This document shows positions 3 through 62,542 of a DNA stretch of 64,000 nucleotides, piece after piece (within the stretch, counting starts at the first letter, position 1; each line of letters starts with the position of its first letter). The DNA lies in NCBI GenBank assembly GCA_049969495.1, contig JBMFOT010000002.1, forward strand, positions 4,406 through 68,405. Direction: 5' to 3'. The notes under the pieces were generated by a model. The model saw only the letters and a program-made list of their open reading frames with translations. It made no database searches and had not been told where the DNA came from. A program made the position numbers and the translations under genes. The stretch is from Armatimonadota bacterium. Its GTDB lineage: Bacteria > Armatimonadota > HRBIN16.

Positions 3-761
3 TTGCGCGACGAGGACGTGGATATCCGCCGCGCGGCAATCAGCCAGCTGCGTTTCGCAAACGACAAGCGTGTGGTGCCTGCGGTGATACCGCTTCTGGA
101 CGACTACGATCAGACCACCCGCTTTTTTGCGCTGGGCGTGTTGCGCAAGCTGACCGGCAAACCCTACTTTGCCAGAACCGCTGACCCGCCTGAAAAGCAG
201 CAGGTGGTGATTCGCCAGTGGAAGCAGTGGTGGGCAAAAGAGCGAGCGCGCTGGGCAGATGAACAGCGATGGGCAACCGTCAAGCCGGTACATCCGAAGC
301 GCACCGACCCTGCGCCTCCATTCACCCTGAGAAGCCTCGACGGCGCGCAGCTGCGTCACCAGGAGATGAGGGGCAAGATTCTCTTGCTCCACTTCTACGG
401 CACCTGGTGCGCCCCTTGTGAAGTAGAGATGCCCGAGCTGGTGCGCCTGCGCCAGGTTTATCCCGAAGAGGTTCTCATCATGATAGGCGTTGCGGTCAAT
501 GAAACCCAGGGCGAGCGTGCGGTGCGCGAGTGGATAGAGAGGTTCAAAATCACCTACCCGCAGGCTCTGGCGACATCCGAGATTGTCTCTGCATACTGGA
601 TACAGGGCGTGCCGATTACCTATGTCATTGACCACGAAGGACGCATCCGCTACCGCTTCGAGGGCGAGCGAGATTTCGAAACGCTGCGCAAAGCGGTCGA
701 GCGCGTGCGGGCAGAGGCTACCGTCACAGGTTCATCAACCACACCAGCAACGGCGCAATAA
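3..761 (+). CDS. HEAT-repeat / TlpA-like thioredoxin-fold thiol:disulfide oxidoreductase (5' truncated by window edge)
   Basis: The ORF runs off the window start. N-terminal HEAT-like repeats are followed by a thioredoxin fold with a WCAPC active-site motif (FYGTWCAPCEVEMPEL), typical of TlpA/ResA proteins. Confidence 0.7.
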   Translation: MRDEDVDIRRAAISQLRFANDKRVVPAVIPLLDDYDQTTRFFALGVLRKLTGKPYFARTADPPEKQQVVIRQWKQWWAKERARWADEQRWATVKPVHPKRTDPAPPFTLRSLDGAQLRHQEMRGKILLLHFYGTWCAPCEVEMPELVRLRQVYPEEVLIMIGVAVNETQGERAVREWIERFKITYPQALATSEIVSAYWIQGVPITYVIDHEGRIRYRFEGERDFETLRKAVERVRAEATVTGSSTTPATAQ

Positions 762-1407
762 GCAATGCGGGCAGGAAGTTCGCCACCGGAATCGGGCGCA
801 GGTTCAGCAGACGGATGCCTAGCCCCAGCATCATCAACCCGCCAGTGGCGAACATCACGTTTTTCATTCCTTCGGTAAGCACGTTGCCTATCCAGCCTGC
901 GCCCAGCGTCAGCGTGCCCTGTACCACCAGCACCGTGCCCGCCGAGAACAGCACGCCCCAGCCCAGCGCAGCGGTGAAGAAGGCAGAGGAAACGCCGTCC
1001 AGCAGGCTTTTGACCAGTAACAGGCTGTAATTACCTGTTAATCCGTCCTGAATACAACCCATGATGGTCATAGGCCCGACGCAGAAGAGGATGCTGGTAC
1101 TAACGAACGCCTGGCTGAACGTGCTACCGCCTTCGTTGCTGAAGCGTTGCTGCAGGGCGTTACCCAAGGCGTCCAATTTCCCCTCGATATCCAGACCTTC
1201 ACCGATAATCGCACCGAGCAACAGACTTGCCAGCGGTAAGAGGGGGTTCTTTTCGCTCAGGCTCATCTGCACCCCGATCATGAGCGTCATCAAGCCGATG
1301 ATTTGCATGGTGGTTTCGCGCAGGCGCGGCTTGAGGAAACGTCGTGCGGTCAAGCCCACGCCCGTGCCGACCACTACCGCTGCCGTGTTGATGAAGGTGC
1401 CGATCAT
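724..1407 (-). CDS. DUF554 (YqgA-like) inner membrane protein
   Basis: 227 aa, polytopic and hydrophobic. The N-terminus MIGTFINTAAVVVGTGVGL is typical of the DUF554 family. It overlaps the 3' end of the thioredoxin gene convergently. Confidence 0.55.
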   Translation of the reverse strand: MIGTFINTAAVVVGTGVGLTARRFLKPRLRETTMQIIGLMTLMIGVQMSLSEKNPLLPLASLLLGAIIGEGLDIEGKLDALGNALQQRFSNEGGSTFSQAFVSTSILFCVGPMTIMGCIQDGLTGNYSLLLVKSLLDGVSSAFFTAALGWGVLFSAGTVLVVQGTLTLGAGWIGNVLTEGMKNVMFATGGLMMLGLGIRLLNLRPIPVANFLPALLIAPLLVWLMNL

Positions 1408-2939
1408 CCTGCGCCCGCGCCCTGCTCCTGCTCCACTTCCTTGCGCAACAGGCGCTTGAGAATCTTGCCTGTGCCGGACTTGGGTAGCGACTCGCGGAAC
1501 TCCACACGCCGCGGTACCTTGAAATTCGCCAGTCGCTGGCGGCAGTAGCGAATGATTTCACGCTCGGTTGCCTCTGCACCGGGCTTCAGCACCACGTAAG
1601 CCACCGGAGCCTCACCGCGTAGTTCGTCGTACTCCCCGACAACAGCCGCCTCTGCTACTGCCGGATGAGTGTGCAGCACCTCCTCCACCTCGCGTGGGTA
1701 GACGTTCAGCCCCCCCACGATAATCATGTCCTTCTTGCGGTCCACGATGTAGAAGTAGCCGTCCTCATCCATCTTGCCGATGTCGCCGGTGTGGTACCAG
1801 CCATTGCGCATCGCTTCGGCGGTGGCTTCGGGGAGGTTATAGTAGCCCAGCATCACGTTCTCGCCGCGCACCACAATCTCGCCCAGCTCGCCCACCGGCA
1901 CTTCGTTGTCGTTGTCGTCGAAAATTTTCATCTCCACACCGGGGATAGGCAGTCCGATACTGCCCGGCTTGCGCACGCCTTTCAGAGGGTTGACCGCTGT
2001 CACCGGCGAGCACTCGGTAGGTCCGTCGCCCTCTAAGATGACCACGTTGAACCGCTTCTCGAAGGCTTCCATGACCGCCACCGGCATCGGTGCACCGCCC
2101 GACACGCAGATGCGCAGAGACGACAGGTCATACTCTCGCGGCAGCTGGTAGTGCAGGATGGCGGCATACATCGTCGGCACTGCCGGGAAGATAGTGCAAC
2201 GATGTTTCTCTATCGTTTCCAGCACGCCGTCGGGGGTGAACCGCTCTACCAGCGTGCTGGTACAGCCCACGTAGATAGAGAGGTGCATACACACCGTGCC
2301 TGCGAAAGCGTGAAACAGCGGCAACACGGTCACGAAATTATCGGAGGGCGTCATCTCTAGCACCGACACGCACGATTCGCAGTTGGCAATCAGGTTGCGG
2401 TGACTGAGCATACAACCTTTGGGGAGGCCCGTCGTGCCGGAGGTGTATAGGAACACGGCAGGATGCTCGCGCGGGTTAAAATCCGGCGGGGTAGGCACGG
2501 GGGCAGGCTGTTGCCACAAGGCGTCGAAAGACAGAAAGTCCGGAGCCTCGCCGCCTGCCAGCAGGAGATGTTGCAAGGAGGGTACCTGTGGCTTCACCGC
2601 CCGCAACACATCCGCCAGCATCGGTATCGTCACCGCCGCTTTGACACCGGCGTCGTTGTAGATGTAGCGCAGCTCGTCCGGTTTGAGCAAGGGGTTCGCT
2701 GGTACCGCAATCGCCCCCAGTGCTTGACAGGCGTAATACGCCATGACGAACTGCGGCACGTTCGGAAGCAGAATCGCTACCCGGTCGCCCTTTCCGATAC
2801 CCAGTTCTTGGAGCCCCTTCGCGACCCCGCTCACCGCGCCGAGCAGCTGTCCGTAAGAGATCGGCTTATCACGGAAGATGAGAGCAGTTTGATCTGGATG
2901 GCGCTGGGTGGTTTGTAAAAGCATTTCGAAGAGATTCAT
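1404..2939 (-). CDS. Long-chain-fatty-acid--CoA ligase (AMP-binding enzyme family)
   Basis: AMP-binding motifs YTSGTTGLPKG and TGDIGKMDEDGYFYIVDRKKDMII are present. I place the start at the internal Met (MNLFEMLL), which has an AGGAGG Shine-Dalgarno about 8 nt upstream. The longer ORF (to 3068) would start at TTG inside the upstream divergent gene's RBS. Confidence 0.85.
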   Translation of the reverse strand: MNLFEMLLQTTQRHPDQTALIFRDKPISYGQLLGAVSGVAKGLQELGIGKGDRVAILLPNVPQFVMAYYACQALGAIAVPANPLLKPDELRYIYNDAGVKAAVTIPMLADVLRAVKPQVPSLQHLLLAGGEAPDFLSFDALWQQPAPVPTPPDFNPREHPAVFLYTSGTTGLPKGCMLSHRNLIANCESCVSVLEMTPSDNFVTVLPLFHAFAGTVCMHLSIYVGCTSTLVERFTPDGVLETIEKHRCTIFPAVPTMYAAILHYQLPREYDLSSLRICVSGGAPMPVAVMEAFEKRFNVVILEGDGPTECSPVTAVNPLKGVRKPGSIGLPIPGVEMKIFDDNDNEVPVGELGEIVVRGENVMLGYYNLPEATAEAMRNGWYHTGDIGKMDEDGYFYIVDRKKDMIIVGGLNVYPREVEEVLHTHPAVAEAAVVGEYDELRGEAPVAYVVLKPGAEATEREIIRYCRQRLANFKVPRRVEFRESLPKSGTGKILKRLLRKEVEQEQGAGAG

Positions 2940-3053
2940 TATCCTGTTACACCTCCTCTCTGGTGAATTCGCAAAAAGAGGAGCTTTTTCCTGCGAAAGG
3001 GAAGATTGCTGCGCTGACGCTCGAAATGACACAGACGGAAAGGAGGTACAAGG

Positions 3054-4861: not shown

Positions 4862-4870
4862 ACCTATCCC

Positions 4871-5005
4871 CCCAACCCCCTTCCCCACAGGGGAAGGGGG
4901 AGCATTGCTCACGCGTATCCCAATTTCGGTAGACTTGCACCCCCCAACCCTCTTCCCCCTAGGGGGAGGGGGGAGCATTGCCCCTCTCCTTGTCGGAGAG
5001 GGGAC
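4871..5005. repeat. Tandem pair of GC-rich hairpin (REP-like) elements plus a third hairpin, between convergent genes
   Basis: The unit CCCCAACCCCCTTCCCCACAGGGGAAGGGGGAGCATTGC is repeated about 72 nt downstream with a few substitutions. Each unit forms a 10-bp stem (CCCCTTCCCC/GGGGAAGGGG). A third hairpin CCCCTCTCC-ttgtc-GGAGAGGGG follows. Together they probably act as a bidirectional terminator for ThuA(+) and GH51(-). Confidence 0.5.
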
Positions 5006-5019
5006 GGCGGTGAGGTTCT

Positions 5020-7422
5020 CTATCTCTCCTTCAGCACTATCACCGTCAACGAATGCCTGGGGAAAATATATCGGAATTGTGGAGCAACCCCGCTCAGCCC
5101 GCGTTCGACCGGCGCAACGCGCATGGGGTTTTCCAGTGAGTTCTCGTCGTCAAGGCTCTCGCTGGTGAGAGTCACCGCTTTGCCTAACGGATGCACCGAG
5201 CGCACACCCTGCAGGCGAATCTCCGTCTCTAGCGCCCTGTCGGAGACGTTCACCACTTTCAGAATCATCTCACGGGTCCGGTGGTTCCGGCTGGCAACGG
5301 CGTAGAGGGCAGGTAGCGGTTTGTCCTCGAAGTCGTGTATCAATTTCTCGTCCAGATAGCATCGGATGCGTGCGCCCTGTACCTCGATGCGGATGTCGTA
5401 CCATCGCCCTGTTTCGATACTGCCGGGCACCTCGTTGCTCACGATGCTCTTGCCGCCGCCAACGCACTTCTCCACAGCGTGTTTGGAGTTGCCCCAACCG
5501 CCGAGGTTCCACCAGTACCAGTTGTTATCGTCGCGCACGCGGAACATAATGAGAAAGCCTTCTGCTCCCCCGATCTTGCGCGCGCGCAGCGTCAGGGTGT
5601 AATCTGCCCAATTGGGGTCGCCCACAACCGCACGGCAATCGGTGGTCAGGCTGTTCTGGCGATAGCTGCCATCCACGACCTGCCAGTCGCCTCGTACCAC
5701 ACGCCAGCCGGCGGTTCCCTGCGCAAAATCGGCGGCAAATAGGGTCTGCCCGTGATGAGTGACCTTCACATCCCGGTACTCTGCTTGTGTCGCCCACGTG
5801 CCCAGCCCGATTGCCCCGCGTGTTTCGGTGACCGCTATGGCAGGTGCATCTACCTTCAAGGGCAGCACGTGTGTGCCACGGTAAACGCTGAACAGCTTCT
5901 GCACGTAATAAGAGGGCGTGCCATACACGCGCGAGCTGTCAAAACCGATCAGGTCGGGGTTCCACTGTCGGGCATTCACGTTCACAAACAAGGGTGCATA
6001 CGCCGCCATAATAACGATATCGCTGTTGCGCTCTATACCCGTCATGAAAGCGGCTTCGGCGATTGCCGCGCGCAGGTTGCCTGTTCCACAGCCCTGAGTG
6101 ACGGCGTACTCGCCGACAAAAATCTTCGGTCCCTTGCGGTCGTAGCGGTCGTAACGGTTCGCTTGTGAGATGAACCACTCGGGGCTGGAGTAGTAGTGCT
6201 CGTCCAGAATGTCCATCGGTCGGCTGCGTACCGGCGAGTTGGCGATAACCTGAATATGGGGAAAGCGCGCCTTGATGGCGTCGTAAAAGCGGGCGTATCG
6301 CTCCTCGTAGGCGGACCCCCAGTTCTCGTTGCCGACCTCCACGAATCGCAAGGGGAAGGGTTTGGGATGTCCGTTTCTCGCCCGCAGCGCGCCCCACTTG
6401 CTGGTAGGCGGCCCAATAGCGTATTCAATGGCAGCGAGCGCGTCCTCGATCCACTCGTCCAGTGTGTCCATCGGCACAACATCGCCGTTACGATACTGGC
6501 ATGCCATCCCGCAGTTGACCACAAGCAGAGGTTCTGCGCCCAGATCCTCGCACATCTGCAGGTACTCGTGCAAGCCCAGTCCCTGCGTGGTGGTATAGCC
6601 CCACACGCACCAGCGCGCCGGGCGTTCGGCGATGTCGCCCAGCGTATTGCGCCAGCGCAGCGCATTGCTCATGCGGTCCCCTTCTACAAAGCAACCGCCC
6701 GGAAAGCGCAGGAAGGAAGGCTTGAGCTCCGCCAGCATCTGCGCAAGGTCTTTACGTAAGCCGTTTGGTCGCCCCTTGAAGGTGTCTACCGGCATCAGTG
6801 AAACCATGTCCAGCCACAACACACCCGGCGACGTTGCCGTGATGACCAGTCGGGCCCGGGCATCGGTCGCGCGAGATGTCAGGGTTGCCACAAACCGTTT
6901 CCATTCCCTACCGATGTTCCGTACCCTGTGCTGGGCATATACCTCACCGTCTGCTGCTTGCAGACTAACCACCAGCTCGCCGCGAAAGCGGTTGTCGCAC
7001 CGCGCATACAGCGACAGCCGGTACCGCTCGCCCTTTTCTATCCCGATGCCCCAGTAGCCCTCGTTGACCAGACTGACTCGCGGCGATCCCTCCCCTATCT
7101 CCCAGCGCAGACTGCGCAGGTTGCGTGCGTTCAGGGGATAGTCGCTGTCTACCGCGATATGCGACTTACCCCTATCGCCCCCGACGAGAGTCCACGCTTG
7201 CGGAACGGGAGCGTCCTCGAAAGAGCGATTGCGCACCAGTTCGGCGTAGATTCCCCCGTCGCCCGCGTGGTTAATCTCCTCGAAGAAGATGCCCCATAGT
7301 ACAGGGCTGATAGGGGTACCCTGTGCAGAAGCATCCACTTCCACTACCGACTTTTGAGCCTGCACGAGAACAGAGGGCAGAATCATGCAGGTCAGGATGA
7401 TGAGGAGTCTAACCAACCGCAC
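5020..7422 (-). CDS. Secreted GH51 alpha-L-arabinofuranosidase with accessory (CBM-like) domains
   Basis: Signal peptide MRLVRLLIILTCMILPSVLVQAQ, with a GTG start and a GGAGGG RBS. GH51 signatures FLRFPGGCFVEG and VEVGNENWG are present. At 800 aa it is longer than a core GH51, so it carries extra N- and C-terminal domains. Confidence 0.75.
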   Translation of the reverse strand: MRLVRLLIILTCMILPSVLVQAQKSVVEVDASAQGTPISPVLWGIFFEEINHAGDGGIYAELVRNRSFEDAPVPQAWTLVGGDRGKSHIAVDSDYPLNARNLRSLRWEIGEGSPRVSLVNEGYWGIGIEKGERYRLSLYARCDNRFRGELVVSLQAADGEVYAQHRVRNIGREWKRFVATLTSRATDARARLVITATSPGVLWLDMVSLMPVDTFKGRPNGLRKDLAQMLAELKPSFLRFPGGCFVEGDRMSNALRWRNTLGDIAERPARWCVWGYTTTQGLGLHEYLQMCEDLGAEPLLVVNCGMACQYRNGDVVPMDTLDEWIEDALAAIEYAIGPPTSKWGALRARNGHPKPFPLRFVEVGNENWGSAYEERYARFYDAIKARFPHIQVIANSPVRSRPMDILDEHYYSSPEWFISQANRYDRYDRKGPKIFVGEYAVTQGCGTGNLRAAIAEAAFMTGIERNSDIVIMAAYAPLFVNVNARQWNPDLIGFDSSRVYGTPSYYVQKLFSVYRGTHVLPLKVDAPAIAVTETRGAIGLGTWATQAEYRDVKVTHHGQTLFAADFAQGTAGWRVVRGDWQVVDGSYRQNSLTTDCRAVVGDPNWADYTLTLRARKIGGAEGFLIMFRVRDDNNWYWWNLGGWGNSKHAVEKCVGGGKSIVSNEVPGSIETGRWYDIRIEVQGARIRCYLDEKLIHDFEDKPLPALYAVASRNHRTREMILKVVNVSDRALETEIRLQGVRSVHPLGKAVTLTSESLDDENSLENPMRVAPVERGLSGVAPQFRYIFPRHSLTVIVLKER

Positions 7423-7641: not shown

Positions 7642-8472
7642 ATGCGTATGAAGTGGCTGTGGGTTCTGGCGTTGCTTGTGCTTGTTCTGGGCACAGTGAG
7701 CCCGGCGTACAGTCAGCAGGAAGGCGGACAACAACCGCCTCGCATCACCTTGAATCTGGAGTCCGCCAGCATCGCCGACGCCTTGAAGCTGTTGTTCCGC
7801 TCCGTCGGCTACAACTACACGCTGGACGAGTCGGTGGTGGGAGGTTACGTCACCGTCTCGCTGAAGGACGTCACCTTCGAGACGGCGCTGCGTACCATTC
7901 TGCGCGCTGCGAACCCGCCATTGACTTACCGCGTGGACGGCGGGGTGTACATCATCACGCCCAAGGTAGAGACGTACGAGACCGGCGTTGCAGAGCCTAC
8001 GGTGGAGGAACAGCCACAACCCCAGGTTCGCACCGAGAAAATCATGTTGCAGCATCTGGACTCCCTGGCGGTTGCCCAGCTGCTCGGCGGAACCGCGGTT
8101 GCGCTCAATCAGACCGGCTGGACGTATAGCGGTGGCTTCGGCGGTTTCGGCGGCTACGGCGGCTATGGCGGCTACGGCGGTCTTGGAGGCTATGGCGGCT
8201 ATGGCGGCTTCGGTGGCGGCCTCGGCGGCTGGGGCGGTAGCGGCTGGGCTGGCGGCGGCTGGGGCGGCCTTGGCGGCTTCGGCGGCGGCCTTGGCGGCTG
8301 GGGTGGTGGCCTCGGCGGTTGGGGCGGTGGCTTCAACCGCGGCGGCTGGGGCGGCGGCTTCGGCGGTTGGGGCGGGGGCTTCAACCGCGGCGGCTGGGGC
8401 GGCGGTTGGGGCGGTGGCTTCAATCGCGGCGGCTGGGGCGGTGGCTTCGGCGGTTGGGGGCGTGGCTTTTAG
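7642..8472 (+). CDS. Secreted protein: secretin-N (STN/NolW-like) domain followed by a Gly/Trp/Tyr/Phe-rich low-complexity tail
   Basis: The ATG at 7642 has a GGAGGTGA Shine-Dalgarno 7 nt upstream (an in-frame GTG sits at 7633). Signal peptide MRMKWLWVLALLVLVLGTVSPAYSQQ. Residues about 35-110 (ITLNLESASIADALKLLFRSVGYNYTLDE...VTVSLKDVTFETALRTILRAANPPLTYRVDGGVYIITPK) fit the Secretin_N pattern. The C-terminal roughly 130 aa are repeats such as GGFGGYGGYGG and GGWGGGFNRGGWGGGF. A strong rho-independent terminator follows. Confidence 0.6.
   Translation: MRMKWLWVLALLVLVLGTVSPAYSQQEGGQQPPRITLNLESASIADALKLLFRSVGYNYTLDESVVGGYVTVSLKDVTFETALRTILRAANPPLTYRVDGGVYIITPKVETYETGVAEPTVEEQPQPQVRTEKIMLQHLDSLAVAQLLGGTAVALNQTGWTYSGGFGGFGGYGGYGGYGGLGGYGGYGGFGGGLGGWGGSGWAGGGWGGLGGFGGGLGGWGGGLGGWGGGFNRGGWGGGFGGWGGGFNRGGWGGGWGGGFNRGGWGGGFGGWGRGF
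8100..8470 (+). repeat. Coding tandem repeats (about 48-nt unit, GGCTTCAACCGCGGCGGCTGGGGCGGCGGCTTCGGCGGTTGGGGCGGG-like) encoding the Gly-rich tail
   Basis: At least three near-identical DNA units are visible (GFNRGGWGGGFGGWGGG x3), preceded by shorter GGYGG units. These repeats also produce spurious Ala-rich and Pro-rich ORFs on other frames. Confidence 0.7.
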
Positions 8473-11110: not shown

Positions 11111-11184
11111 TTTGTTATGCTGAGCGTCAGCGAAGCATCTCAGAGTGGCGGTAATACGAGATTCTTCGCTTTGCTCAGAACGAC
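11111..11184. repeat. Inverted pair of a 27-nt interspersed repeat unit (family A; GTCATTCTGAGCGnAGCGAAGAATCTC-like), forming a long imperfect hairpin
   Basis: The left arm is TGCTGAGCGTCAGCGAAGCATCTC. The right arm is GAGATTCTTCGCTTTGCTCAGAAC (reverse complement GTTCTGAGCAAAGCGAAGAATCTC), with a 16-nt loop. The same unit recurs at about 24782, 55392, 55432 and, weakly, 62501. Confidence 0.5.
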
Positions 11185-11338
11185 AGCAAAGCAGAACCAC
11201 TCCGCCCATATCCAAATAATCAAGATGGACGAACCACGGGCGTGCCGACATCGTAAAGTTTCGAGGCAACACGGGAGAATGCCTGCAGGATCGAGGCGAC
11301 GGCAAACCTGCCGATGAGTCGAAAACCGTTGCATCATC

Positions 11339-11366
11339 ACGGCTCGGCAGGAGCTTCGCTCGTTGC
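11339..11366. repeat. Family B short repeat copy (CGGCTCGGCAGGAGCtTCGC..., partial)
   Basis: It shares the core CGGCTCGGCAGGAGC with the copies at 26900 and 62422. It lies immediately upstream of the 11363(+) gene. Confidence 0.4.
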
Positions 11367-16372: not shown

Positions 16373-16403
16373 CCCCTCTCCCCGCAGTGCGGGAGAGGGG
16401 ACA
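16373..16403 (-). terminator. Rho-independent terminator for the 16416..17363 gene (bidirectional position)
   Basis: A 12-bp stem CCCCTCTCCCGC/GCGGGAGAGGGG with a 3-nt loop. On the minus strand it is followed by TTTTTATTATT. Confidence 0.65.
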
Positions 16404-16415
16404 CACGGTGAAGCA

Positions 16416-17363
16416 CTACCTGTATTCGCCTGCTACGAGCAGCTGGGCAACGTTACGGCACGTATCGGGGTCAGGCTGACGGCAGTTGTAGATGTTGTTG
16501 TCGTAGCCGTCGAACGGGAAGGTGCGCTCGCCAGGACGGCGGAAGCAGGTCCACTTCCAGAGATTGTTGGCGATGGCGCCCTGAATGCGTGTCCACTTCA
16601 CGTGCCCATCCGCAAACACGAAATGGACGCCCTTCAGGTGATTGACCAACCAGCCATACTGGCGTACTTTGCCATCCAGGCAGGGCGAGCCTGGAGCAGG
16701 CACATCTCCGCCAAATGGGTCACCTGGTGGGTTGCACCAGCAGCGTGCCAGAGCCCACGGACCGGTGTCCGGCTCGTAGTTCTTGCCGTCCTGCATCCAG
16801 ATGGTCTCCGCGGGCACATCGAGGTCAGCCAGCTTTCTGGGAGGATCCGCGTAGCCGGATTGATAGGCAGCAAGGTTGAAAACGGCGCCGTTGACCGTGT
16901 AACCACGCGGGAACCACAGATTTTGACTGCGAGGAACGTCGCACAGCGGATCACTGCGCAGCCAAGGCGAGCTCGGATGGCAGTGTGCCCAAGTCTCATC
17001 CATTGGTGAACCACGCCACGCATTGACGTTGTCGCCCAGCATCCGGGAGATTTGCGCCTTCGCATTGGGGCACTCATAGACCGGGAGGTTCTTGACGTAC
17101 GGAAAGATGCCGTACTTCCAGTTCGACCACGTCGCCCCGCCGTTACCGATGAACCGATTGTAGGGGAATGTCTCGTCGTAGTCCTGCACATACATCATCA
17201 CTCCCGTGCCCACCTGTTTGAGGTTGCTTAGGCAGGATGCTTGTCGCGCCTTCTCGCGCGCTTGGGCGAACACAGGGAACAGGATCGCCGCCAGTATCGC
17301 GATAATCGCGATGACCACCAGCAGCTCAATGAGCGTAAAGCCGCGCTTCATGACTGTACGCAC
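16416..17363 (-). CDS. DUF1559 protein with prepilin-type N-terminal cleavage/methylation domain (pseudopilin-like)
   Basis: The N-terminus [46 protein letters not shown] is the class III signal/pilin motif. The C-terminal [10 protein letters not shown] fits the DUF1559 H-X9-DG region. Confidence 0.8.
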
Positions 17364-18970: not shown

Positions 18971-19681
18971 ATGAAATCACGTCGCGGTTTTACGCTGATT
19001 GAGCTGTTGGTTGTTATCGCGATTATCGCGATACTGGCAGCGATCCTGTTCCCGGTCTTTGCACAGGCCCGGGAGAAGGCGCGGCAAACTTCGTGCTTGT
19101 CCAACATGAAGCAGATCGGTACTGCAGCGCGGATGTACGTGGAAGATTATGATGGCATGTCCATTTGGGATACGTACTGGCAGTTCACCCATTTCCCCAA
19201 CACATGGTCTGGGTTTATTCTGCCATACGTGAAGAATGAGGACATTTTCCGTTGTCCCAGTCATGCGGTACCGCGCAAGCCGTGGAACACCGACCCCTAC
19301 GATTGGGTACCTGAGTGGTACTACAAGAGCTACGGGATCAACGTCTACGGTGCGGTGATCTACATAAAACCGGACAATACCGTTAGCGAGTTCATGCTCG
19401 ACCTCATCAAACGTCCGGCGGAGCGCATCTGGTTCTTTGAGGTGTACGATGCGGACGATAACGACCAAGGATTGGGCTACAACGCCACTTGGGGACCCAG
19501 TCACTGGGCATTTCGTCATACAGACGGAATGAACGTTACATTCATAGATACCCATGCTAAGTATGTGACACGAAAGACGCTAGAAGGGTGGTGGAACGAT
19601 CGCTCACGCAACCCATGTACCGGGCGCTACCTGTACATCTACTATCCCTGGTCATCGGACAACTCGTGTCCAGGGCTGTAG
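18971..19681 (+). CDS. DUF1559 protein with prepilin-type N-terminal methylation domain
   Basis: [61 protein letters not shown] is present. It starts 30 nt after the regulator's stop, so it is probably co-transcribed. Confidence 0.8.
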
Positions 19682-24781: not shown

Positions 24782-24826
24782 TTGCCTCGTTTCTGAGACA
24801 GAAGGATTCTTCGCGCCCGAGAGGCA
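24782..24826. repeat. Hairpin element related to family A (TTGCCTCG...GATTCTTCGCG...CGAGAGGCAA)
   Basis: An 8-bp imperfect stem encloses TTTCTGAGACAGAAGGATTCTTCGCGCC. It shares the TTCTGAG ... GAAGAAT core of family A. Confidence 0.35.
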
Positions 24827-24876: not shown

Positions 24877-26898
24877 ATGCTTTCCTGGCGTAAGTGGACG
24901 GTGCCTTATTCTCCCAGCGTAGCGGGGGCGCGTGTGCAGGAACCTGCAGCCACAGCGATAGCCGCCCCAGGGCGCACCCTCACGCTAAGAGCGTGGATGA
25001 TTGGTATCCTCTGTGTGACACTGGTGGACCTGTGGATACACTGGGCGGAGCTGGTGCTGGGCGGACGCGGGCACACCGCGCTGGCGAACACCTCTATCCC
25101 TGTTGGGGCGTTCAACGCGCTGGTCGCGCTGGTGGTGATGAACTTGCTGTTACGGCGAGTAGCAGCGCGATGGGCGCTAACCCCTCAGGAACTGCTGGTC
25201 ATCTATGTCATGATGACCGTCGCCACGGTGCTGTCCTCCTCGGGCGCGTTGCACTTCATCGTACCGACGGTGACCGCCGCCTTCTATTACGCCTCTGCCG
25301 AAAACCAGTGGGCTCAGCTCTTTCATCGCTACATCCCCGATTGGCTGGCGCAGAAGAATGAGTTCGCGCTGAAATACTTTTACCAGGGCGACGCGCCTGT
25401 GCCGCTGGGCTTGTGGTGGAAGCAAATCGGTGCGTGGACGCTGTTCATGACCGTGTACACCTTCACCTGCCTGTGCTTGATGGCGATTATGCGCAGGCAA
25501 TGGGTGGAGCGTGAGCGGCTGACCTTCCCGACGGTTGCACTGCCTCTTGCACTCATCCGCGAACCGCAATCGCTGTTCAGTAGCCGATTATTGTGGCTGG
25601 GTTTTGCCATCCCCTTTAGCCTGGGCACGATGAACACCATCCACCTGAACTATCCGGCGGTTCCTGAAATACCTCTACGCGCCACCAGCCACCTGGACCT
25701 CGCACAATGGGTGACCACGCCGCCGTGGAACGCCATCGGCTACACCCCGATGTCCTTCTACCCCTTCGTCATCGGCATCGCCTATCTGCTGTCGCTGGAC
25801 GTGACGTTCAGTTGCTGGTTCTTCTATCTGGTGACCAAGATCGAGCTGGTGCTGGGTTCGGCGATGGGCTGGACGGCAGCAGCGGGAGGCGCAGCGCAAA
25901 GCGTCTATCCCTGGACAGGTCATCAGGGCGCGGGAGCCTTTCTGGGGTTGGCGGCTATCAGCCTTTATCTGGCGCGCAAGCACTTGAAAGAGGTGTGGCA
26001 AACCGCCTGGCGCGGTCAAGGTGACGATAGCGACGAACCGATGCCGTATCGCTGGGCAGTGGTTGGTTTCTTCCTGGGGTTACTGGGCAGTATGATGTTT
26101 TGTGTGGTAGCGGGCATGAGCTGGGGCGCGGCGGCGATACTGGTGCTGCTCGCCCTTTCCTACATGATGGCGGCGACGCGCACCCGTGCTGAAAGCGGTA
26201 ACGCCTGGCTGTTCGGTCCCAGTGTAGACGTATACCAGCTCATGACCACCACCTTCGGCACAACGGGCTTTCGCGTGCAGGACCTGACCATCCTGGCTTA
26301 CATGCGTGCTCCGCTGGCGAATTTCGACCTGCGTTGTATCTCCATGCCTCACCAGCTGGACGGCTTCAAGATGGGCGGTGAGGTGCGTGCTAACCTGCGT
26401 CAGGTGGCGATGGCGATGATGACGGCGATCGCGGTGGGGTTCATCGTCTCGTTCGTGATTGCGCTGGCGATATGGTACCACTTCGGCGCGGGCGCAAAGA
26501 CCGACGCCTGGCGCACCTACATGGGACGAACCCCCTTCGACGCGCTGGCGGACGCTATCAAAACGCCCTTGAAAGCGGATACCAACGGCTCCATCGCGGT
26601 AGTATTCGGTTTGTTGATTACACTGGTGCTTGCGATACTGCGTACACAGCTTGCCTGGTTCCCCTTCCATCCTGTTGGCTATGCAATCGCCCACACGCTG
26701 ACCATGCAGATGGTGTGGTTGCCCTTCATTATCGCGTGGGTCATCAAGTGGGTGGTGCTGCACTTCGGCGGGATGAAGCTCTACCGCCAGTCCTTGCCGT
26801 TCTTCTTCGGGCTGATACTGGGCGACTTCCTGAACGGCGGCTTCTGGACGCTGGTCGGGTGCTTTACCAATATCAGCGTCTACCCGATTAACTGGTAG
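24877..26898 (+). CDS. Large polytopic membrane protein (about 14 TM), unknown family
   Basis: 673 aa. Hydrophobic helices run throughout and aromatic residues are abundant. There are no recognisable catalytic motifs. The start is uncertain. Confidence 0.5.
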   Translation: MLSWRKWTVPYSPSVAGARVQEPAATAIAAPGRTLTLRAWMIGILCVTLVDLWIHWAELVLGGRGHTALANTSIPVGAFNALVALVVMNLLLRRVAARWALTPQELLVIYVMMTVATVLSSSGALHFIVPTVTAAFYYASAENQWAQLFHRYIPDWLAQKNEFALKYFYQGDAPVPLGLWWKQIGAWTLFMTVYTFTCLCLMAIMRRQWVERERLTFPTVALPLALIREPQSLFSSRLLWLGFAIPFSLGTMNTIHLNYPAVPEIPLRATSHLDLAQWVTTPPWNAIGYTPMSFYPFVIGIAYLLSLDVTFSCWFFYLVTKIELVLGSAMGWTAAAGGAAQSVYPWTGHQGAGAFLGLAAISLYLARKHLKEVWQTAWRGQGDDSDEPMPYRWAVVGFFLGLLGSMMFCVVAGMSWGAAAILVLLALSYMMAATRTRAESGNAWLFGPSVDVYQLMTTTFGTTGFRVQDLTILAYMRAPLANFDLRCISMPHQLDGFKMGGEVRANLRQVAMAMMTAIAVGFIVSFVIALAIWYHFGAGAKTDAWRTYMGRTPFDALADAIKTPLKADTNGSIAVVFGLLITLVLAILRTQLAWFPFHPVGYAIAHTLTMQMVWLPFIIAWVIKWVVLHFGGMKLYRQSLPFFFGLILGDFLNGGFWTLVGCFTNISVYPINW

Positions 26899-26899
26899 G

Positions 26900-26926
26900 G
26901 GCTCGGCAGGAGCCTCGCCCTCCAGA
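26900..26926. repeat. Family B short repeat copy GGCTCGGCAGGAGCCTCGCCCTCCAGA
   Basis: It matches the copy at 62422-62449 in 27 of 27 positions. It contains the hairpin GGCTC-ggcag-GAGCC. It sits immediately after the stop of 24877..26898 and upstream of the 27034 gene. Confidence 0.6.
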
Positions 26927-44752: not shown

Positions 44753-45502
44753 TCAATCGCGGGTGAAGTGAGCGTCGGTCATCTGCGTCTGGCTCATCGG
44801 CTTCACGTGCCCGTCGCAGAAGACGATGTTCGCGAACCCGCGATGTTTTACCACTTGGTTACCGGTGTCCACGTCCTTACGGTTATCGATGTGACGGAAA
44901 TCCACCGTGGGGTTACCCCACCACATGGAGGGCGGGTCAATGTAGGGTGTTTCCCACATGGTGCCGTCGCCACCGTACCAGGGCACATTGTAGAAACCAC
45001 TGTCGGCGAACATCACCTTTTCCGCAGGACGTGAGAGCGCGGATTCGGAGGCAGGGTTGCGCAGGTTGGGCCAAGTGCTCCAGTTGAAGGTGATGTAGAT
45101 GTCCGAGCCGATATAACCCCAGTTGTAACCGTAGCCGTTACCGTCGCCAAAGCGGGTGCGTCCACCCCAGCTGGGACAGCGTTGAATCTGCCCGTTTTTC
45201 ATGTAGGGGTAGAGCAAGCTCTGCGTTTTGTCCCACACGCCTGCCTGCGTTTCCTTGCCGAACCAGCACTGTCGCAGAGAACCACTGTAGGCGTACTGGG
45301 CAATGGGGTAGGTCTCGTCGTAGTCCTGGAGGTACATCAGCGTTGCCAGACCCAGCTGCTTCAGGTTGCTCTGGCAGCTCGCCTGACGGGCTTTCTCGCG
45401 TGCCTGCGCGAAAACAGGGAACAGAATCGCTGCCAGTATCGCGATAATCGCGATAACTACCAGCAGCTCAATCAGCGTGAAAGCGTTGCGTTGGCGGAAC
45501 AT
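44753..45502 (-). CDS. DUF1559 protein with prepilin-type N-terminal methylation domain
   Basis: The start is at the internal Met ([49 protein letters not shown]), which has an AAGGAGGG RBS. Confidence 0.8.
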
Positions 45503-45939
45503 ACTTCCCTCCTTACCAAAAAATTCACCGCTCACGACGCGCGGAGGGAAACGTCGGAAGCGGTGTGTGCTTTCGGCGCGTCAATAAAAAACCTGATGCC
45601 CTTCCGCACCAGGTTGGTTGAAACGCGCCCGATTCACCTTCGGGTCACGTCCCCCTCCCTCCGCGAAGGGGGCCCTGCGATGTGCAGGGCGTGACCAGCC
45701 GTCGCCGGGCATTCGGGCTTATCTCCCCGTGTGGGAGACACACCGCAGCGGGCCTGCGCCGGATTCTCACCGGACTTCCCCCGATATTTCAGCCCCGATG
45801 CGATCGGGGCGCAGACGGCTCACCCTTATGTGATTTGGTAATACTATATCACAGCCGCGCGGGGCTGTCAAGCGTTTTCGCAGCGACTTTGGAGATTTTT
45901 TGTACCCGGCGAGGAAAACTGCTTGCACCGAGGCGAAAC

Positions 45940-50328: not shown

Positions 50329-50634
50329 ATGATGGACATTCGCTTGAACTCTGTGCTGCCGGGGGCAACAGGAGCTCTTCTCCCCTCTCCCACAGAGTCG
50401 GGCGAGGGAACAGAATTCTCCTTCACCGACGCGCTCAAGGATGCGTTTGACAGGATAAACCAGATGCAGAACGACGCCGCCGAGCTGGCCCGGCAGTTCG
50501 CGGCAGGCGAGACCGACGACCTGGTACGCGTGGTCACCGCGGCGGAGGAAGCCTCTATCGCCCTGCAGCTGGCGATGCAGGTGCGCAACAAGGTGGTAGA
50601 GGCGTATCAGGAAATCATGCGGATGCAGGTATAG
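50329..50634 (+). CDS. fliE: Flagellar hook-basal body complex protein FliE
   Basis: 101 aa. The C-terminal ...AEEASIALQLAMQVRNKVVEAYQEIMRMQV is typical of FliE. Confidence 0.8.
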   Translation: MMDIRLNSVLPGATGALLPSPTESGEGTEFSFTDALKDAFDRINQMQNDAAELARQFAAGETDDLVRVVTAAEEASIALQLAMQVRNKVVEAYQEIMRMQV

Positions 50635-54012: not shown

Positions 54013-55359
54013 ATGCGGAACGCGCCTGAAAACCTGCTACCATTATCTCCACCCGACCTGTCGGCAGCGCGGGAGCGATTGCGCCTGCTGGACCCGATAA
54101 AGGTGCACGGTCGGGTGCAACAGGTTATCGGGCTGGTCATAGAAAGCGTCGGACCCGCTGCGCGTGTAGGTGAGGTCTGCGAGATTCACTTCCAGCGCAC
54201 ACGCCCTCCCATCTTTGCGGAGGTGGTGGGCTTTCGGCAGAACCGCGTGCTGTTGATGCCTTTGGGGGAGATGGAGGGTATCACGCCCGGCAGTCAGGTG
54301 GTAGCAACGGGCATGGTACACAAAGTACCTGTCGGCGAATGCCTGCTGGGGCGCGTGCTGGACGGGTTGGGCAGACCGATGGACAGCGGGCCACCGATTA
54401 CTCCAGACACCCTGTATCCGGTGAACCGCCAGCCCCCGAATGCCCTGGCTCGCAAACGCATTACCGAAGCGGTCAGTCTGGGGGTACGGGCGATTGACGG
54501 GTTGCTTACCGTCGGCAAGGGGCAACGTATCGGCATCTTCGCCGGCTCCGGTGTGGGCAAAAGTACCCTGCTGGGCATGATTGCCCGCTACACCAGCGCG
54601 GATGTGAACGTCATCGCCCTCACCGGCGAGCGTGGGCGTGAGGTACGCGAGTTCATAGAAGAGGACCTGGGTGAGGAAGGGCTAAAGCGGTCGGTGGTGG
54701 TGGTCGCGACGTCCGATCAGCCTGCGCTGCTGCGCATTAAAGCGGCGATGGTCGCCACAACCATTGCCGAGTACTTCCGGGATCAGGGGCTGGATGTGTT
54801 GCTGATGATGGATTCGGTCACACGCCTTGCGCTGGCGCAGCGCGAGGTGGGATTGGCTATCGGCGAACCGCCTGCCACACGCGGCTACACGCCCTCGGTG
54901 TTTGCCATTCTGCCTCGTCTGCTGGAACGCGCGGGCACATCGGATAAGGGCACAATTACCGGGCTGTACACCGTGCTGGTGGAAGCCGATGATATGAACG
55001 AGCCGGTCGCCGACACCGTGCGGGGCATCCTGGACGGGCACATTGTGTTGTCGCGTGCGTTGGCGCACCGCAACCACTATCCTGCCATTGATGTGCTGGC
55101 AAGCGTCTCGCGCGTGATGCCCCAAATCACCGATGAGGAACATCGGCAGGCGGCGGCGCAGGTGCGTAAGGTGCTGGCGGACTACACCGAGGCGGAAGAC
55201 CTGATTAACATCGGCGCGTACCAGCAGGGCAGTAACCCCGATATCGACTACGCCCTGCGCTACATCGGCAAGGTGCGTGAGTTCTTGCAACAGGGCAAGA
55301 TGGAGGGATGCCCGCTGGAGCAGACGATACAGCGGTTGAAAACATTGTTCGTTGATTGA
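54013..55359 (+). CDS. fliI: Flagellum-specific ATP synthase FliI
   Basis: Walker [24 protein letters not shown] and Walker [10 protein letters not shown], 448 aa. Confidence 0.9.
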
Positions 55360-55391
55360 TAAATTGATTGGGTTGATTGCGTGCGTGTTGA

Positions 55392-55477
55392 TGAGCGTTT
55401 ATGGGCTTTTGTCATCCTAACAGCGTATCGGTGAGCGTTTGTGCGCTTGTGTCATTCTGAACGGAGCGAAGAATCTC
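55392..55477. repeat. Tandem imperfect duplication of family A repeat (..TGAGCGTTTrTGsGCTTkTGTCATyCTrAmmGsG..), second copy GTCATTCTGAACGGAGCGAAGAATCTC
   Basis: Two units of about 42 nt sit head-to-tail in the fliI-fliJ intergenic region. The second unit is the best match to the family consensus. Confidence 0.5.
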
Positions 55478-55489
55478 ATTACCAGTGCT

Positions 55490-55966
55490 ATGCGACGATT
55501 TGAGTTCTCTCTACAAAAAGTTCTGGACTACCGTCAACGGCGGGAAGAGCAGGCGGTGCGTGCCTTTACACAAGCGCAAGCGCAGCTACTGCACGAGCAG
55601 GCGGTGTTGCACAAACTGGTTGTGGAACGCGAAGAGTGTCTGCGCCGTTCGCATCGTCAGCAGCGTCTGACGGTGGAACTGCTGGATGTAGAACAAACCT
55701 ATCTGTCCGCTCTGGAAGAGCGCATCGAGGCACAGCGCGAACGGGTGGCAGAGGCAGAGAAGGTGCTGGAAGAGAAACGACAGGCTTTGACGCAGGCACA
55801 GCGCGAACGCAAAGCACTGGAACGCTTGCGAGAGAAGCACTACGAACAGTGGCGTCAGGAAATATTGCGCATCGAGCAGAAAGCACTGGATGAGCTTGCG
55901 ACGGCGCGATCGGTGCGATCACCGGGCGTTTTGACCTTACACACAGGGGGTGAGGAGCGTGAGTAG
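55490..55966 (+). CDS. fliJ: Flagellar export chaperone FliJ
   Basis: MRRFEFSLQKVLDYRQRREEQAVRAF... is a coiled coil of about 158 aa. The internal ATG is chosen over the TTG at 55439. Confidence 0.7.
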   Translation: MRRFEFSLQKVLDYRQRREEQAVRAFTQAQAQLLHEQAVLHKLVVEREECLRRSHRQQRLTVELLDVEQTYLSALEERIEAQRERVAEAEKVLEEKRQALTQAQRERKALERLREKHYEQWRQEILRIEQKALDELATARSVRSPGVLTLHTGGEERE

Positions 55967-62449: not shown

Positions 62450-62542
62450 AGAATGAGCCTTGACAGACCACTGTGGCTATTGTAACCATCATCCCTGCTG
62501 TGTCATCATAAAGGATGGATCTTTTATTCTCAGGAGCGAGCC

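What the first reader, a model, noticed from the sequence alone, without database searches (positions are those of the whole stretch)
11111..11184. Interspersed 27-nt repeat family A (GTCATTCTGAGCGnAGCGAAGAATCTC-like) present as an inverted pair, a tandem pair and degenerate singles
Related units occur at 11111-11143 (forward) and 11158-11184 (reverse), which together form a stem-loop of about 24 bp. Others are at 24782-24826 (embedded in an 8-bp hairpin), 55392-55425 and 55432-55477 (head-to-tail upstream of fliJ) and, weakly, at 62501-62542. All copies are intergenic and close to gene starts. Some overlap an RBS, for example GGAGCGAAGAATCTC is 13 nt before the fliJ ATG. The pattern suggests a MITE/REP-like element or a shared cis-regulatory or RNA-structure motif, not chance.
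Basis: seen in the sequence. Interest (0 to 1): 0.55.

Follow-up and report, generated by a model that had tools for sequence, protein, structure and literature searches.

The report
TGTC-tagged REP-like mini-hairpin repeats
The repeat is real: it is a small, apparently mobile, hairpin-forming DNA element of the REP kind. Close relatives of this bacterium lack it at the same sites, and the same 25-base core occurs in bacteria of at least 14 phyla and in phages, with no known enzyme that moves it.

Summary
The window holds three statistically solid units: 11111-11143 (+), 11156-11187 (-) and 55448-55479 (+). The sites at 24782-24826 and 62501-62542 are not supported.

The unit is T-GTC-AT-NNN-GA-GC-GNA-GC-GA-NNN-AT-C-TC. 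It has a 5-bp stem that covaries, a tandem G·A internal loop and a GCGNAGC mini-hairpin. The NNN/NNN triplets are Watson-Crick in about 284 of 314 unbiased matches.

Both main window sites are filled-versus-empty polymorphisms against relatives. The pair at 11.1 kb is one copy of an ~80-nt doublet with the tags outside. That doublet is dispersed, sometimes in tandem arrays, in related metagenome contigs.

Units lie mostly between genes, in either orientation to them, without target-site duplication and with no transposase nearby. The core occurs in at least 14 bacterial phyla and in tailed phages. It is absent from Rfam and from E. coli.

The best fit is a new variant of the CGTC/TGTC-tagged REP superfamily of Di Nocera et al. 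2013. How it spreads is unknown. A cis-regulatory RNA reading is poorly supported.

The parts
11111..11143 (+). Family-A unit 1 of the doublet. TGTT head (a variant of TGTC) at 11113-11116; stem ATGCT 11117-11121 paired with AGCAT 11134-11138; tandem GA at 11122-23 and 11132-33; GCGTCAGC mini-hairpin at 11124-11131; tail CTC.
   Evidence: CM 31.9 bits, E 2.8e-5. The stem carries a compensatory change relative to the other copies (ATGCT/AGCAT against ATTCT/AGAAT). It is the left half of the dispersed doublet.
11144..11155 (.). Central part of the doublet spacer. The full spacer between the two unit cores is AGAGTGGCGGTAATAC, about 11142-11157.
   Evidence: The spacer is conserved among doublet copies in L259, L261, L263 and L264 (consensus CAGAGTGGCGrTACAAC).
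11156..11187 (-). Family-A unit 2 of the doublet, inverted so that its tag points outward. Core on the - strand: GTCGTTCTGAGCAAAGCGAAGAATC (11184-11160).
   Evidence: CM 35.4 bits, E 4.4e-6; pattern hit with 2 mismatches.
11188..11237 (.). Tail that travels with some doublet copies (AGCAAAGCAGAACCACTCCGCCCATATCCAAATAA...), running to the end of the segment that differs from relative L248.
   Evidence: The tail is shared with the L259, L261(-) and L264 copies. Homology to L248 resumes at about 11238.
55360..55487 (+). Lineage-specific insertion of about 127 nt between the fliI stop (55357-55359) and the fliJ ATG (55490). It also rewrites the last two fliI codons.
   Evidence: Three relatives with 92-94% identical FliI have only 4 nt between fliI and fliJ.
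55448..55479 (+). Family-A singleton unit. Core GTCATTCTGAACGGAGCGAAGAATC at 55451-55475; A·C mismatch in the inner 2-bp stem.
   Evidence: CM 42.3 bits, E 1.1e-7; pattern hit with 1 mismatch. It is the only part of the insertion that matches other loci.
55390..55431 (+). Tandem partial duplicate: a leader (GATGAGCGTTTATGGGCTTTT) followed by a 5' half-unit (GTCATCCTAAC...). The 3' half is missing.
   Evidence: Alignment. The model does not detect it. The same arrangement, half-units upstream of a full unit, recurs in L012, L019, L021, L047 and L250.
3000..3033 (-). Decayed unit TGTCATTTCGAGCGTCAGCGCAGCAATC. The head, 5' stem strand, GA and GCGTCAGC are kept; the 3' stem strand is degenerate.
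   Evidence: CM 12.4 bits, E 0.92 on its own. GAGCGTCAGCG occurs only here and at 11122-11132 (0.11 expected). The unit lies exactly where homology to relative L260 breaks.
24782..24826 (.). Claimed degenerate copy. Not supported as a family member; it is an ordinary local hairpin.
   Evidence: Not found by the model at E<=10. The shared 11-mer occurs at chance frequency. Fold z -0.75 to -1.7.
62499..62542 (+). Claimed weak copy. At most a relic: a TGTCAT head followed by an unrelated short hairpin.
   Evidence: CM 11.4 bits, E 1.6.

Best explanation
The window carries copies of a non-coding, non-autonomous repeated DNA element of the REP type. Each unit has an unpaired 5' tag (T/C)GTC. A 5-bp stem follows that always starts A-T, T-A and then covaries. 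Next come a symmetric tandem G·A internal loop in the 5'-Y-GA-R-3' context, a 2-bp G-C stem closed by a GNA (or GNNA) loop, which is the d(GCGNAGC) mini-hairpin, and a short C-T-N tail.

Units spread within and between genomes as singletons and, preferentially, as inverted doublets with the tags outside. These doublets resemble REPINs or BIMEs.

Shown here:
- the fold, by covariation;
- gain and loss at orthologous sites;
- copying of a whole ~80-nt doublet to different loci and into tandem arrays in the window's lineage;
- a mainly intergenic location in either orientation to genes;
- no target-site duplication;
- no transposase gene next to the copies.

Inferred:
- the active form is the folded G/A-rich single DNA strand;
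- a trans-acting enzyme recognises it together with its tag; an HUH/Y1-type or other single-strand DNA transposase or recombinase is the model, but none was identified;
- the very stable mini-hairpin also promotes replication slippage, which would explain the truncated 5' half-units stacked upstream of full units, as at 55390-55479;
- once inserted, copies may act secondarily as 3'-end or intercistronic hairpins in transcripts.
For: Fold. In matches to GTCATNNNGAGCGNAGCGANNNATC, where the N positions are free, the two triplets are fully Watson-Crick in 142 of 151 viral hits and in 142 of 163 genome hits. At least 10 triplet types occur; chance would give 1 in 64. The inner pair also covaries (G-C to A-T, GAACGNAGTGA; 12 of 70 distinct units). 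Expanded and nested variants keep the GA...GA frame. The loop is G-N-A with N free (A 118, C 105, G 51, T 40). That matches the published rule that only GNA forms the d(GCGNAGC) mini-hairpin, with Tm 70-76 C as DNA. The one RNA counterpart the review quotes, r(GCGAAAGC), melts at 39 C against 76.5 C for d(GCGAAAGC) (PMC13037366).

Mobility. The fliI-fliJ spacer is 4 nt in three relatives and about 131 nt here. At the GH127/wzy intergenic site a relative with 94% protein identity has a different TIR-bounded insert in place of the doublet. The subfamily pattern finds 7 further copies in 6 metagenome contigs. Similarity ends at about TTGTCAT on one side and ATGACAGG on the other, and L261 carries four or more tandem doublets. 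In a podophage family, units occupy different junctions in related genomes.

Arrangement. Tags-outside doublets number 83 against 14 tags-inside, and 43% of units in genome loci sit in such doublets. There is no target-site duplication. Orientation to flanking genes is unbiased (63 sense against 56 antisense; 8 against 8 and 14 against 23).

Abundance and spread. A flexible scan gives 504 units against 17 in a reversed-sequence control.

Literature. The CGTC/TGTC-tagged REP superfamily has the same tag, A-T/T-A at the first two stem positions, mainly tags-outside dimers and no dedicated transposase (PMC3733652). Heads here are TGTC in 294 and CGTC in 49 of 368 units.
Against: No mobilising enzyme was found. 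RAYT-like genes occur in only 2 related loci out of 2.2 Mb (L035, L053), and there they are flanked by a different, GTAG-headed REP. Genes flanked by family-A units on both sides are ordinary.

Nearest-neighbour folding does not rate single units as unusually stable (z about 0 to 1). The review says conventional thermodynamic models do not account for the stability of these mini-hairpins (PMC13037366).

A 25-nt core shared across at least 14 phyla is unusual for REPs, which are normally lineage-specific. Such conservation could point to a host function.

In one phage family the sense orientation predominates. The tail is CTN, not the CCA reported for CGTC REPs. I could not see Figure 2 of Di Nocera et al., so I cannot say whether this exact consensus is already listed there.

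My gene calls are crude, so the orientation and intergenic counts are approximate.
Confidence: 0.72

Rival explanations
1. A structured cis-regulatory or processing RNA element in 5' UTRs or intercistronic regions. It would act only when transcribed in the sense orientation, for example as an mRNA stabiliser, an RNase site or a translation modulator.
For: The three window units are close to gene starts (43 nt from the GH127 start; 12 nt before the fliJ ATG). In a podophage structural operon, units fill stop-to-RBS spacers mostly in the sense orientation, where relatives carry other hairpins. The stems covary.
Against: There is no sense/antisense bias overall. Inverted doublets are the commonest form in cellular genomes. 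Among mismatched stem positions, U·G (8) is no commoner than C·A (10) out of 942 pairs. The G-N-A loop with N free fits the DNA mini-hairpin rule; the one RNA counterpart quoted, r(GCGAAAGC), is far less stable than the DNA form. The element is absent from orthologous sites in relatives with 92-94% protein identity. No Rfam family matches. The neighbouring genes are unrelated to one another.
Confidence: 0.1
2. A host-beneficial DNA or RNA punctuation element that is not itself mobile. It would be kept by selection as a bidirectional terminator, a 3'-end protector or a binding site for a universal host factor such as gyrase, IHF, primase or SSB exclusion. This would explain the conservation across phyla.
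For: Units lie nearer the end of the upstream gene than the next start (medians 15-32 nt against 42-63 nt). Convergent contexts outnumber divergent ones, 11 against 2 among genome singletons. In dense genomes doublets flank genes on both sides (L166, L177, L218). Doublets fold strongly on both strands. REPs and CGTC REPs have been proposed to have such roles (PMC3733652). Mini-hairpins bind SSB poorly and lie at primase sites of ssDNA phages.
Against: This does not explain the tag and tail conservation, the copying of whole doublets with their spacer to unrelated loci, the tandem arrays, or the rapid gain and loss between close relatives. There is no T-run after the hairpin. The window's fliJ copy splits an operon junction that is tightly coupled in relatives. 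This reading can coexist with mobility as a secondary role.
Confidence: 0.13
3. Recombination target (att-like) sites for site-specific elements, as Neisseria dRS3 (a CGTC-1 REP) is said to be for filamentous prophages and IS110-type recombinases. The repeats would be landing pads, not the mobile entity.
For: The same intergenic spot holds a family-A doublet in the window and an unrelated TIR-bounded insert in relative L248. A decayed unit lies at a synteny break against L260. Di Nocera et al. equate CGTC-1 with dRS3. The targeting of dRS3 rests on my own recollection and was not tested here.
Against: No recombinase or IS110-like gene recurs next to units. Most units have ordinary genes on both sides. 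This does not explain how the units themselves multiply.
Confidence: 0.05

Closest known systems
CGTC/TGTC-tagged REP superfamily (Di Nocera, De Gregorio & Rocco 2013, PMC3733652). It includes Neisseria dRS3 and Rickettsia RPE-4 and RPE-6.
   Same: An unpaired terminal tag CGTC that is 'changed to TGTC in many repeats'. [quoted passage not shown] A short unpaired tail. Mainly HH dimers (tags outside), often heterodimers, with 20-100-nt spacers. An extragenic location. No dedicated transposase. Occurrence in several phyla.
   Different: The inner stem is not a continuous 8-9-bp Watson-Crick helix. It is a tandem G·A pair followed by a 2-bp stem with a GNA triloop. The tail is CTN (CTC 153 of 368), not CCA. 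The paper reports 5 phyla, mostly alpha-Proteobacteria; here there are at least 14 phyla plus tailed phages. The query found no S. meliloti or A. tumefaciens replicon in the plasmid collection. I could not check the consensus figure.
GTAG-tagged REP / REPIN-RAYT systems (E. coli REP/BIME; Pseudomonas REPINs)
   Same: Imperfect palindromes of 20-40 nt. Inverted doublets as the unit that is copied. Tandem clusters like BIMEs. Presence/absence variation. No target-site duplication.
   Different: There is no GT[AG]G head. No RAYT gene is flanked by the units. The one RAYT-like gene seen (L035/L053) is flanked by its own GTAG REP instead. The core is shared across phyla rather than being lineage-specific.
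d(GCGNAGC)/d(GCGNNAGC) DNA mini-hairpins (Hirao and co-workers; review PMC13037366)
   Same: The apical 7-8 nt of the unit is exactly this motif. G and A of the loop are conserved and N is free.
   Different: The mini-hairpin is a physical motif described at replication and transcription origins, such as the complementary-strand origin of phage G4. It has not been described as a dispersed genomic repeat family. Here it caps a longer tagged hairpin.
Subterminal hairpins of IS200/IS605 elements and their miniature derivatives (PATEs)
   Same: Small hairpins thought to act as single-stranded DNA. No target-site duplication. A model for mobilisation in trans.
   Different: Both hairpins of those elements fold on the same strand, whereas here the doublet halves are inverted. 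No tnpA or tnpB gene is adjacent.
Classical bacterial MITEs (Correia/NEMIS, ERIC, RUP)
   Same: Short, non-coding, dispersed, with terminal inverted symmetry (TGTCAT...ATGACA).
   Different: There is no target-site duplication. Singleton 28-nt units are abundant. Each arm folds on its own, with its own compensatory changes.

Membership tests
CGTC/TGTC-tagged REP superfamily (Di Nocera 2013) | Unpaired terminal CGTC motif, often TGTC | tested here: met
   The base before GTC is T in 294 and C in 49 of 368 canonical units. Window heads are TGTC, TGTC and TGTT.
CGTC/TGTC-tagged REP superfamily (Di Nocera 2013) | Stem begins with complementary A-T, T-A pairs | tested here: inconclusive
   In the distinct-unit alignment the pair at columns 7/27 is A-U in 70 of 70 and the pair at 8/26 is U-A in 69 of 70. 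These positions were largely fixed by the search patterns used to collect the units, so that count is not independent. In the window units, found by the model, two of three have A-T, T-A and the third has G·T at the first pair.
CGTC/TGTC-tagged REP superfamily (Di Nocera 2013) | 8-9-bp stem with a 4-5-nt loop | tested here: inconclusive
   The helix spans 9 positions only if the two G·A pairs are counted. The loop is 3 nt (GNA) or 4 nt (GNNA). The published consensus figure could not be read.
CGTC/TGTC-tagged REP superfamily (Di Nocera 2013) | Short unpaired tail, consensus CCA | tested here: not met
   A tail exists, but it is CTC 153, CTG 61, CCC 38, CTT 36, CTA 32 and CCA 7.
CGTC/TGTC-tagged REP superfamily (Di Nocera 2013) | Mainly HH dimers (tags outside); TT rare; HT negligible | tested here: met
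   83 tags-outside, 14 tags-inside and 23 tandem pairs.
CGTC/TGTC-tagged REP superfamily (Di Nocera 2013) | No dedicated transposase next to the repeats | tested here: met
GTAG REP / REPIN-RAYT | 5' GT[AG]G tetranucleotide at the foot of the hairpin | tested here: not met
   The head is (T/C)GTC followed by AT.
GTAG REP / REPIN-RAYT | A cognate RAYT gene flanked by the repeats (REPtron) | tested here: not met
   tblastn with E. coli RayT and the L035 RAYT against 2.2 Mb of loci and the window found only L035 and L053. Both are flanked by GTAG REPs. Whole genomes could not be searched.
GTAG REP / REPIN-RAYT | Inverted doublet copied as a unit | tested here: met
   An ~80-nt doublet with a conserved spacer sits at different loci, and L261 carries tandem arrays.
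Classical MITE (DDE-transposase derived) | Terminal inverted repeats plus a target-site duplication | tested here: not met
   Doublets have inverted ends, but direct repeats of 2-5 nt at their flanks are no more frequent than in shuffled pairings.
Curated RNA families (Rfam 15) | A match to a covariance model | tested here: not met
   The gathering-threshold scan of the window found only a cobalamin riboswitch. A permissive scan of a canonical doublet found only chance miRNA-like hits.
High-copy REP in the source genome | Tens to hundreds of copies per genome | not testable with these tools
   Only 64 kb of the source is available (3 solid units plus 2 relics). Related contigs show further copies.

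The most novel reading that the evidence does not exclude
Family A would be a previously uncharacterised branch of tagged REPs, carried by bacteria of many phyla and by phages. Its near-invariant 25-nt core (TGTC tag, tandem G·A, GCGNAGC DNA mini-hairpin) would be kept by an unknown single-strand-DNA machinery. That machinery could be a widely transferred mobilising enzyme not encoded next to its substrates, or a universal replisome or repair activity acting on ultra-stable hairpins. Identifying it would answer the open question of how 'transposase-less' CGTC-type REPs multiply.
Probability: 0.25. Interest if true: 0.75.

Novelty: new variant of a known kind. Interest (0 to 1): 0.5.

Why it matters
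For this window the repeats are mobile-element scars, not regulators to be annotated. They explain two lineage-specific indels. One of these pushed 127 nt into a fliI-fliJ junction that is only 4 nt long in relatives, and it moved the Shine-Dalgarno sequence those relatives use.

More broadly, the same 25-nt hairpin occurs from candidate-phyla-radiation (CPR) bacteria to Proteobacteria, Firmicutes and tailed phages. It is not in Rfam, is absent from E. coli, and I found no paper that describes it. Its architecture matches the most stable known DNA mini-hairpin. This gives a concrete and very abundant substrate for asking how REPs without a transposase spread. It also probably accounts for a class of spurious 'hypothetical proteins' (VILSEAKNL / RFAQNDK-like peptides); that last point rests on my own recollection.

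Tried and rejected
- Rfam at the gathering threshold on the window, and at a permissive threshold on a canonical doublet: nothing relevant.
- Full-text searches for the sequence and its complement: only unrelated primers.
- Pfam and NCBIfam scans of the repeat's translations, looking for 'spurious ORF' families: no hit.
- Search for an associated gene by all-against-all clustering of about 1,400 neighbouring ORFs: only phage structural genes and common housekeeping families recur.
- Genes flanked by units on both sides: ordinary genes.
- Y1/RAYT search: hits only next to a different, GTAG-headed REP.
- ssDNA-phage (Microviridae) idea for the small viral contigs: rejected, because they encode HK97-type capsid, portal and terminase proteins.
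- Hammerhead, K-turn, promoter and Pho-box resemblances: considered by eye and rejected, because the required elements are missing or the covariation argues for a hairpin.
- Thermodynamic folding of single units: uninformative, z about 0.
- GC-skew test for a replication-strand bias: units lie more often on the C-rich strand (viral 133 against 63; genome 106 against 81, p = 0.08). This is confounded by gene orientation and local composition, so I do not rely on it.
- Elhai 2008 (cyanobacterial small dispersed repeats) could not be read.
- The source contig could not be fetched.

Full report
**1. What is in the window**

No hit is expected in shuffled sequence. Reading the sequence shows a third copy at 11114-11139 (+). 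It has one extra loop base and a different stem that is still complementary (ATGCT/AGCAT instead of ATTCT/AGAAT).

I built a covariance model from 70 distinct units taken from other organisms. Run over the whole window with filters off, it returns exactly three significant matches:
- 55448-55479 +, E 1e-7;
- 11156-11187 -, E 4e-6;
- 11111-11143 +, E 3e-5.

The site at 62499-62525 scores E 1.6. The site at 24782-24826 and the first 'tandem' copy at 55392-55425 are not returned at E<=10. The 11-mer that links 24805-24815 to the family is no commoner than chance.

The first 'tandem' copy is real in a narrower sense. It is a ~40-nt duplicate of the leader plus the 5' half of the unit, without the 3' half.

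The 11-mer GAGCGTCAGCG occurs only there and in the copy at 11.1 kb, against 0.11 expected.

**2. Anatomy**

I scanned public collections with GTCATNNNGAGCGNAGCGANNNATC. This pattern leaves three stem positions on each side free. Both the viral and the genome scans stopped at their limit of 120 loci.

The free triplets are perfect reverse complements in 142 of 151 viral matches and 142 of 163 genome matches. At least ten triplet types occur. This is an unbiased test of a 5-bp stem, AT-NNN paired with NNN-AT.

The 11-nt 'loop' has structure of its own:
- G-C changes to A-T in concert at the inner pair (GAGCGNAGCGA becomes GAACGNAGTGA; 12 of 70 distinct units).
- Many copies replace GCGNAGC with a longer hairpin while keeping the flanking GA...GA, for example GTCATTCC-GA-GGGCAACGCCC-GA-GGAATC. 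Some copies are nested in several tiers.

So the fold is: stem, then a tandem G·A pair, then a 2-bp stem, then a GNA triloop. Both GA steps sit in the 5'-Y-GA-R-3' context. From general knowledge of nucleic-acid structure, that context favours sheared tandem G·A pairs.

The apex GCGNAGC, with G and A fixed and N free (A 118, C 105, G 51, T 40), is the 'mini-hairpin DNA' motif. The review by its discoverers states that only GNA loops form it, and that d(GCGNAGC) melts at 70-76 C. It says the corresponding RNA hairpins are considerably less stable, quoting 39 C for r(GCGAAAGC). It also says conventional thermodynamic models do not account for the stability (PMC13037366). That fits my folding runs, which rate single units as unremarkable.

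Outside the hairpin only a few positions are conserved. The base before GTC is T in 80% and C in 13% of units. The tail is C-T-N.

**3. Behaviour**

Units lie mainly between genes and in either orientation to them. With a crude gene caller, co-directional contexts give 63 sense against 56 antisense. After removing units with an inverted partner, the counts are 8 against 8 in genomes and 14 against 23 in viral contigs. Units sit closer to the end of the upstream gene than to the next start. Convergent contexts exceed divergent ones.

A flexible structural scan finds 504 units, against 17 in reversed-sequence controls. Adjacent units strongly prefer the arrangement with the tags outside: 83 against 14, with a median spacer of 21-30 nt. 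In genome loci, 43% of units are in such doublets. Half of the doublets join units with different stems.

Doublets have no flanking direct repeats. Tandem arrays occur (L110, L135, L261). So do stacks of truncated 5' half-units upstream of a full unit (L047, L012, L019, L021, L250).

**4. Evidence that the window copies are insertions**

The organism belongs to the Armatimonadota. The best named FliI hits are Armatimonadetes and Chthonomonadales, and the GH127 protein is identical to one from an Armatimonadota MAG.

Three relatives with 92-94% identical FliI have fliI and fliJ separated by 4 nt. The window has about 127 extra nucleotides there (55360-55487). The insertion also rewrites the last two fliI codons. 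Only the 28-33-nt unit inside that insertion matches anything else I fetched.

At the divergent GH127/wzy intergenic region, a relative with 94% protein identity shares both flanks. In place of the family-A doublet it carries an unrelated insert of about 270 nt, bounded by 22-bp terminal inverted repeats.

I scanned metagenomes with a pattern specific to the left unit of the window's doublet. It found seven further copies in six contigs. Aligned, they define an ~80-nt element: TTGTCATGCTGAGCGnnAGCGAAGCATCTCAGAGTGGCGrTACAACGAGATTCTTCGCTTsGCTCAGAATGACAGG. Similarity ends at about TTGTCAT on one side and ATGACAGG on the other. One contig has four or more doublets in tandem. Several copies share the extra tail seen in the window up to about 11225.

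One of these contigs (L260) is 90.7% identical to window 4-2998, so it comes from a close relative, yet it carries its copy at a different locus. A relative with 82% protein identity (L250) has an intergenic region packed with units and half-units.

Related podophages carry units at different gene junctions. At the orthologous junctions, other phages have unrelated hairpins or other non-homologous spacer sequence.

**5. What moves it**

I found no answer. Clustering about 1,400 neighbouring ORFs gave only phage structural genes and common families. Genes flanked by units on both sides are ordinary.

The only RAYT-like Y1 genes in 2.2 Mb (L035, L053) are flanked by a different, GTAG-headed REP. 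A published survey of Y1 HUH proteins lists several subclasses with no known REP partner, or with 'atypical secondary structures' as partners (PMC6006769). These are candidates, not findings.

**6. Comparison with what is known**

No Rfam family matches. The core is absent from 5,426 E. coli genomes. In 72,556 plasmids it matched only six records, from Planktothrix, Calothrix and Phocaeicola; five had no annotated feature (or no annotation) under the match and one lay under a 'hypothetical protein'.

The closest description is the CGTC-tagged REP superfamily of Di Nocera et al. 2013. According to that paper:
- the tag is 'changed to TGTC' in many repeats;
- stems 'almost invariably' start with complementary A-T residues in the first and second positions;
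- units have short unpaired tails;
- HH dimers, defined as tags outside, predominate, and many are heterodimers;
- there is no dedicated transposase;
- the repeats occur in five phyla, and Neisseria dRS3 belongs to the superfamily (PMC3733652).

Family A clearly meets the tag, dimer and no-transposase criteria. The A-T stem start fits too, but my search patterns largely fixed those positions, so I count it as consistent and not independently tested. Family A differs in the tail (CTN, not CCA). It differs in the inner helix, which is a G·A tandem plus a mini-hairpin instead of a continuous 8-9-bp stem. It also differs in breadth: the rows shown alone cover at least 14 phyla, and tailed phages carry it too.

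I could not read the paper's consensus figure or its supplements as sequence. I therefore cannot exclude that this consensus is already among its four families.

**7. Verdict**

The window has one doublet, one singleton with a slipped half-copy, and one relic. All of them lie at positions where close relatives differ.

The mechanism I commit to is a repeat that acts as a hairpin in single-stranded DNA and is mobilised in trans. The fold, the polymorphism and the copying of whole units are shown. The single-strand DNA intermediate and the enzyme are inferred.

A dedicated RNA function is unlikely (about 0.1). A secondary host role at transcript ends remains possible.

Noticed in passing
window 11335-11359, 26894-26918, 62417-62441: A second short repeat family, CGGCTCGGCAGGAGC(C/T)TCGC, containing a GGCTC/GAGCC hairpin. 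It is conserved at the orthologous site in relative L248. The same 20-mer occurs in 8 viral contigs, and L260 aligns to the window copy at 62403-62446.
   Followed up: partly
window 4868-4908, 4941-4981, 16374-16401, 50381-50408; L248 about 5270-5560: A third hairpin family of the CCCC(T)TCCCC...GGGGA(A)GGGG type. In relative L248, hairpins of this type lie inside a ~270-nt insert bounded by a 22-bp TIR (ATTGATGAACTTTGAAAAAATA). That insert sits exactly where the window has the family-A doublet.
   Followed up: partly
window 55476-55492: The insertion removed the GGAG that lies about 8 nt upstream of the fliJ ATG in relatives. No Shine-Dalgarno sequence is left within 12 nt of the ATG at 55490. 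An in-frame TTG at 55439 would add 17 residues (MCACVILNGAKNLITSA) that read through the hairpin.
   Followed up: no
window 8111-8468: A long array of 9-nt-period repeats (GGC-GGC-TWC/TGG type). It would encode a Gly-rich Gly-Gly-Tyr/Phe/Trp repeat.
   Followed up: no
window 45687-45831 (-): Cobalamin riboswitch, 42.8 bits against a gathering score of 31.5.
   Followed up: no
window 17163-17339, 18985-19154, 45305-45481, 62560-62729: Four segments of 164-206 nt that are 71-81% similar. The one at 62560-62729 opens a gene with a prepilin-type N-terminal sequence. They produce weak, spurious hits of the family-A model at 17279-17318 and 19010-19049.
   Followed up: partly
L135 3563-4217; L110 3717-3790, 9369-9492, 9663-9747: Tandem arrays in which each period carries one family-A hairpin. 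A Bacteroidaceae MAG has seven 105-nt units between der and the next gene. A phage contig has arrays with 33-nt, 30-nt and 49-nt periods.
   Followed up: partly
L035 1170-1700 (-); L053 1200-1800: A RAYT-like Y1 transposase gene (HuH motif NHVH, Y motif YIERNP) flanked by inverted GTAG-headed REPs (GTAGCGCAGGCTTCAGCCTGTGG). This is a REPtron for a different repeat family, lying beside family-A units.
   Followed up: partly
all fetched loci: Family-A units lie more often on the C-rich strand of their locus: viral 133 against 63; genome 106 against 81; single-orientation genome loci with |skew|>0.03, 26 against 11. This is possibly a replication-strand or gene-strand effect and remains unresolved.
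   Followed up: partly
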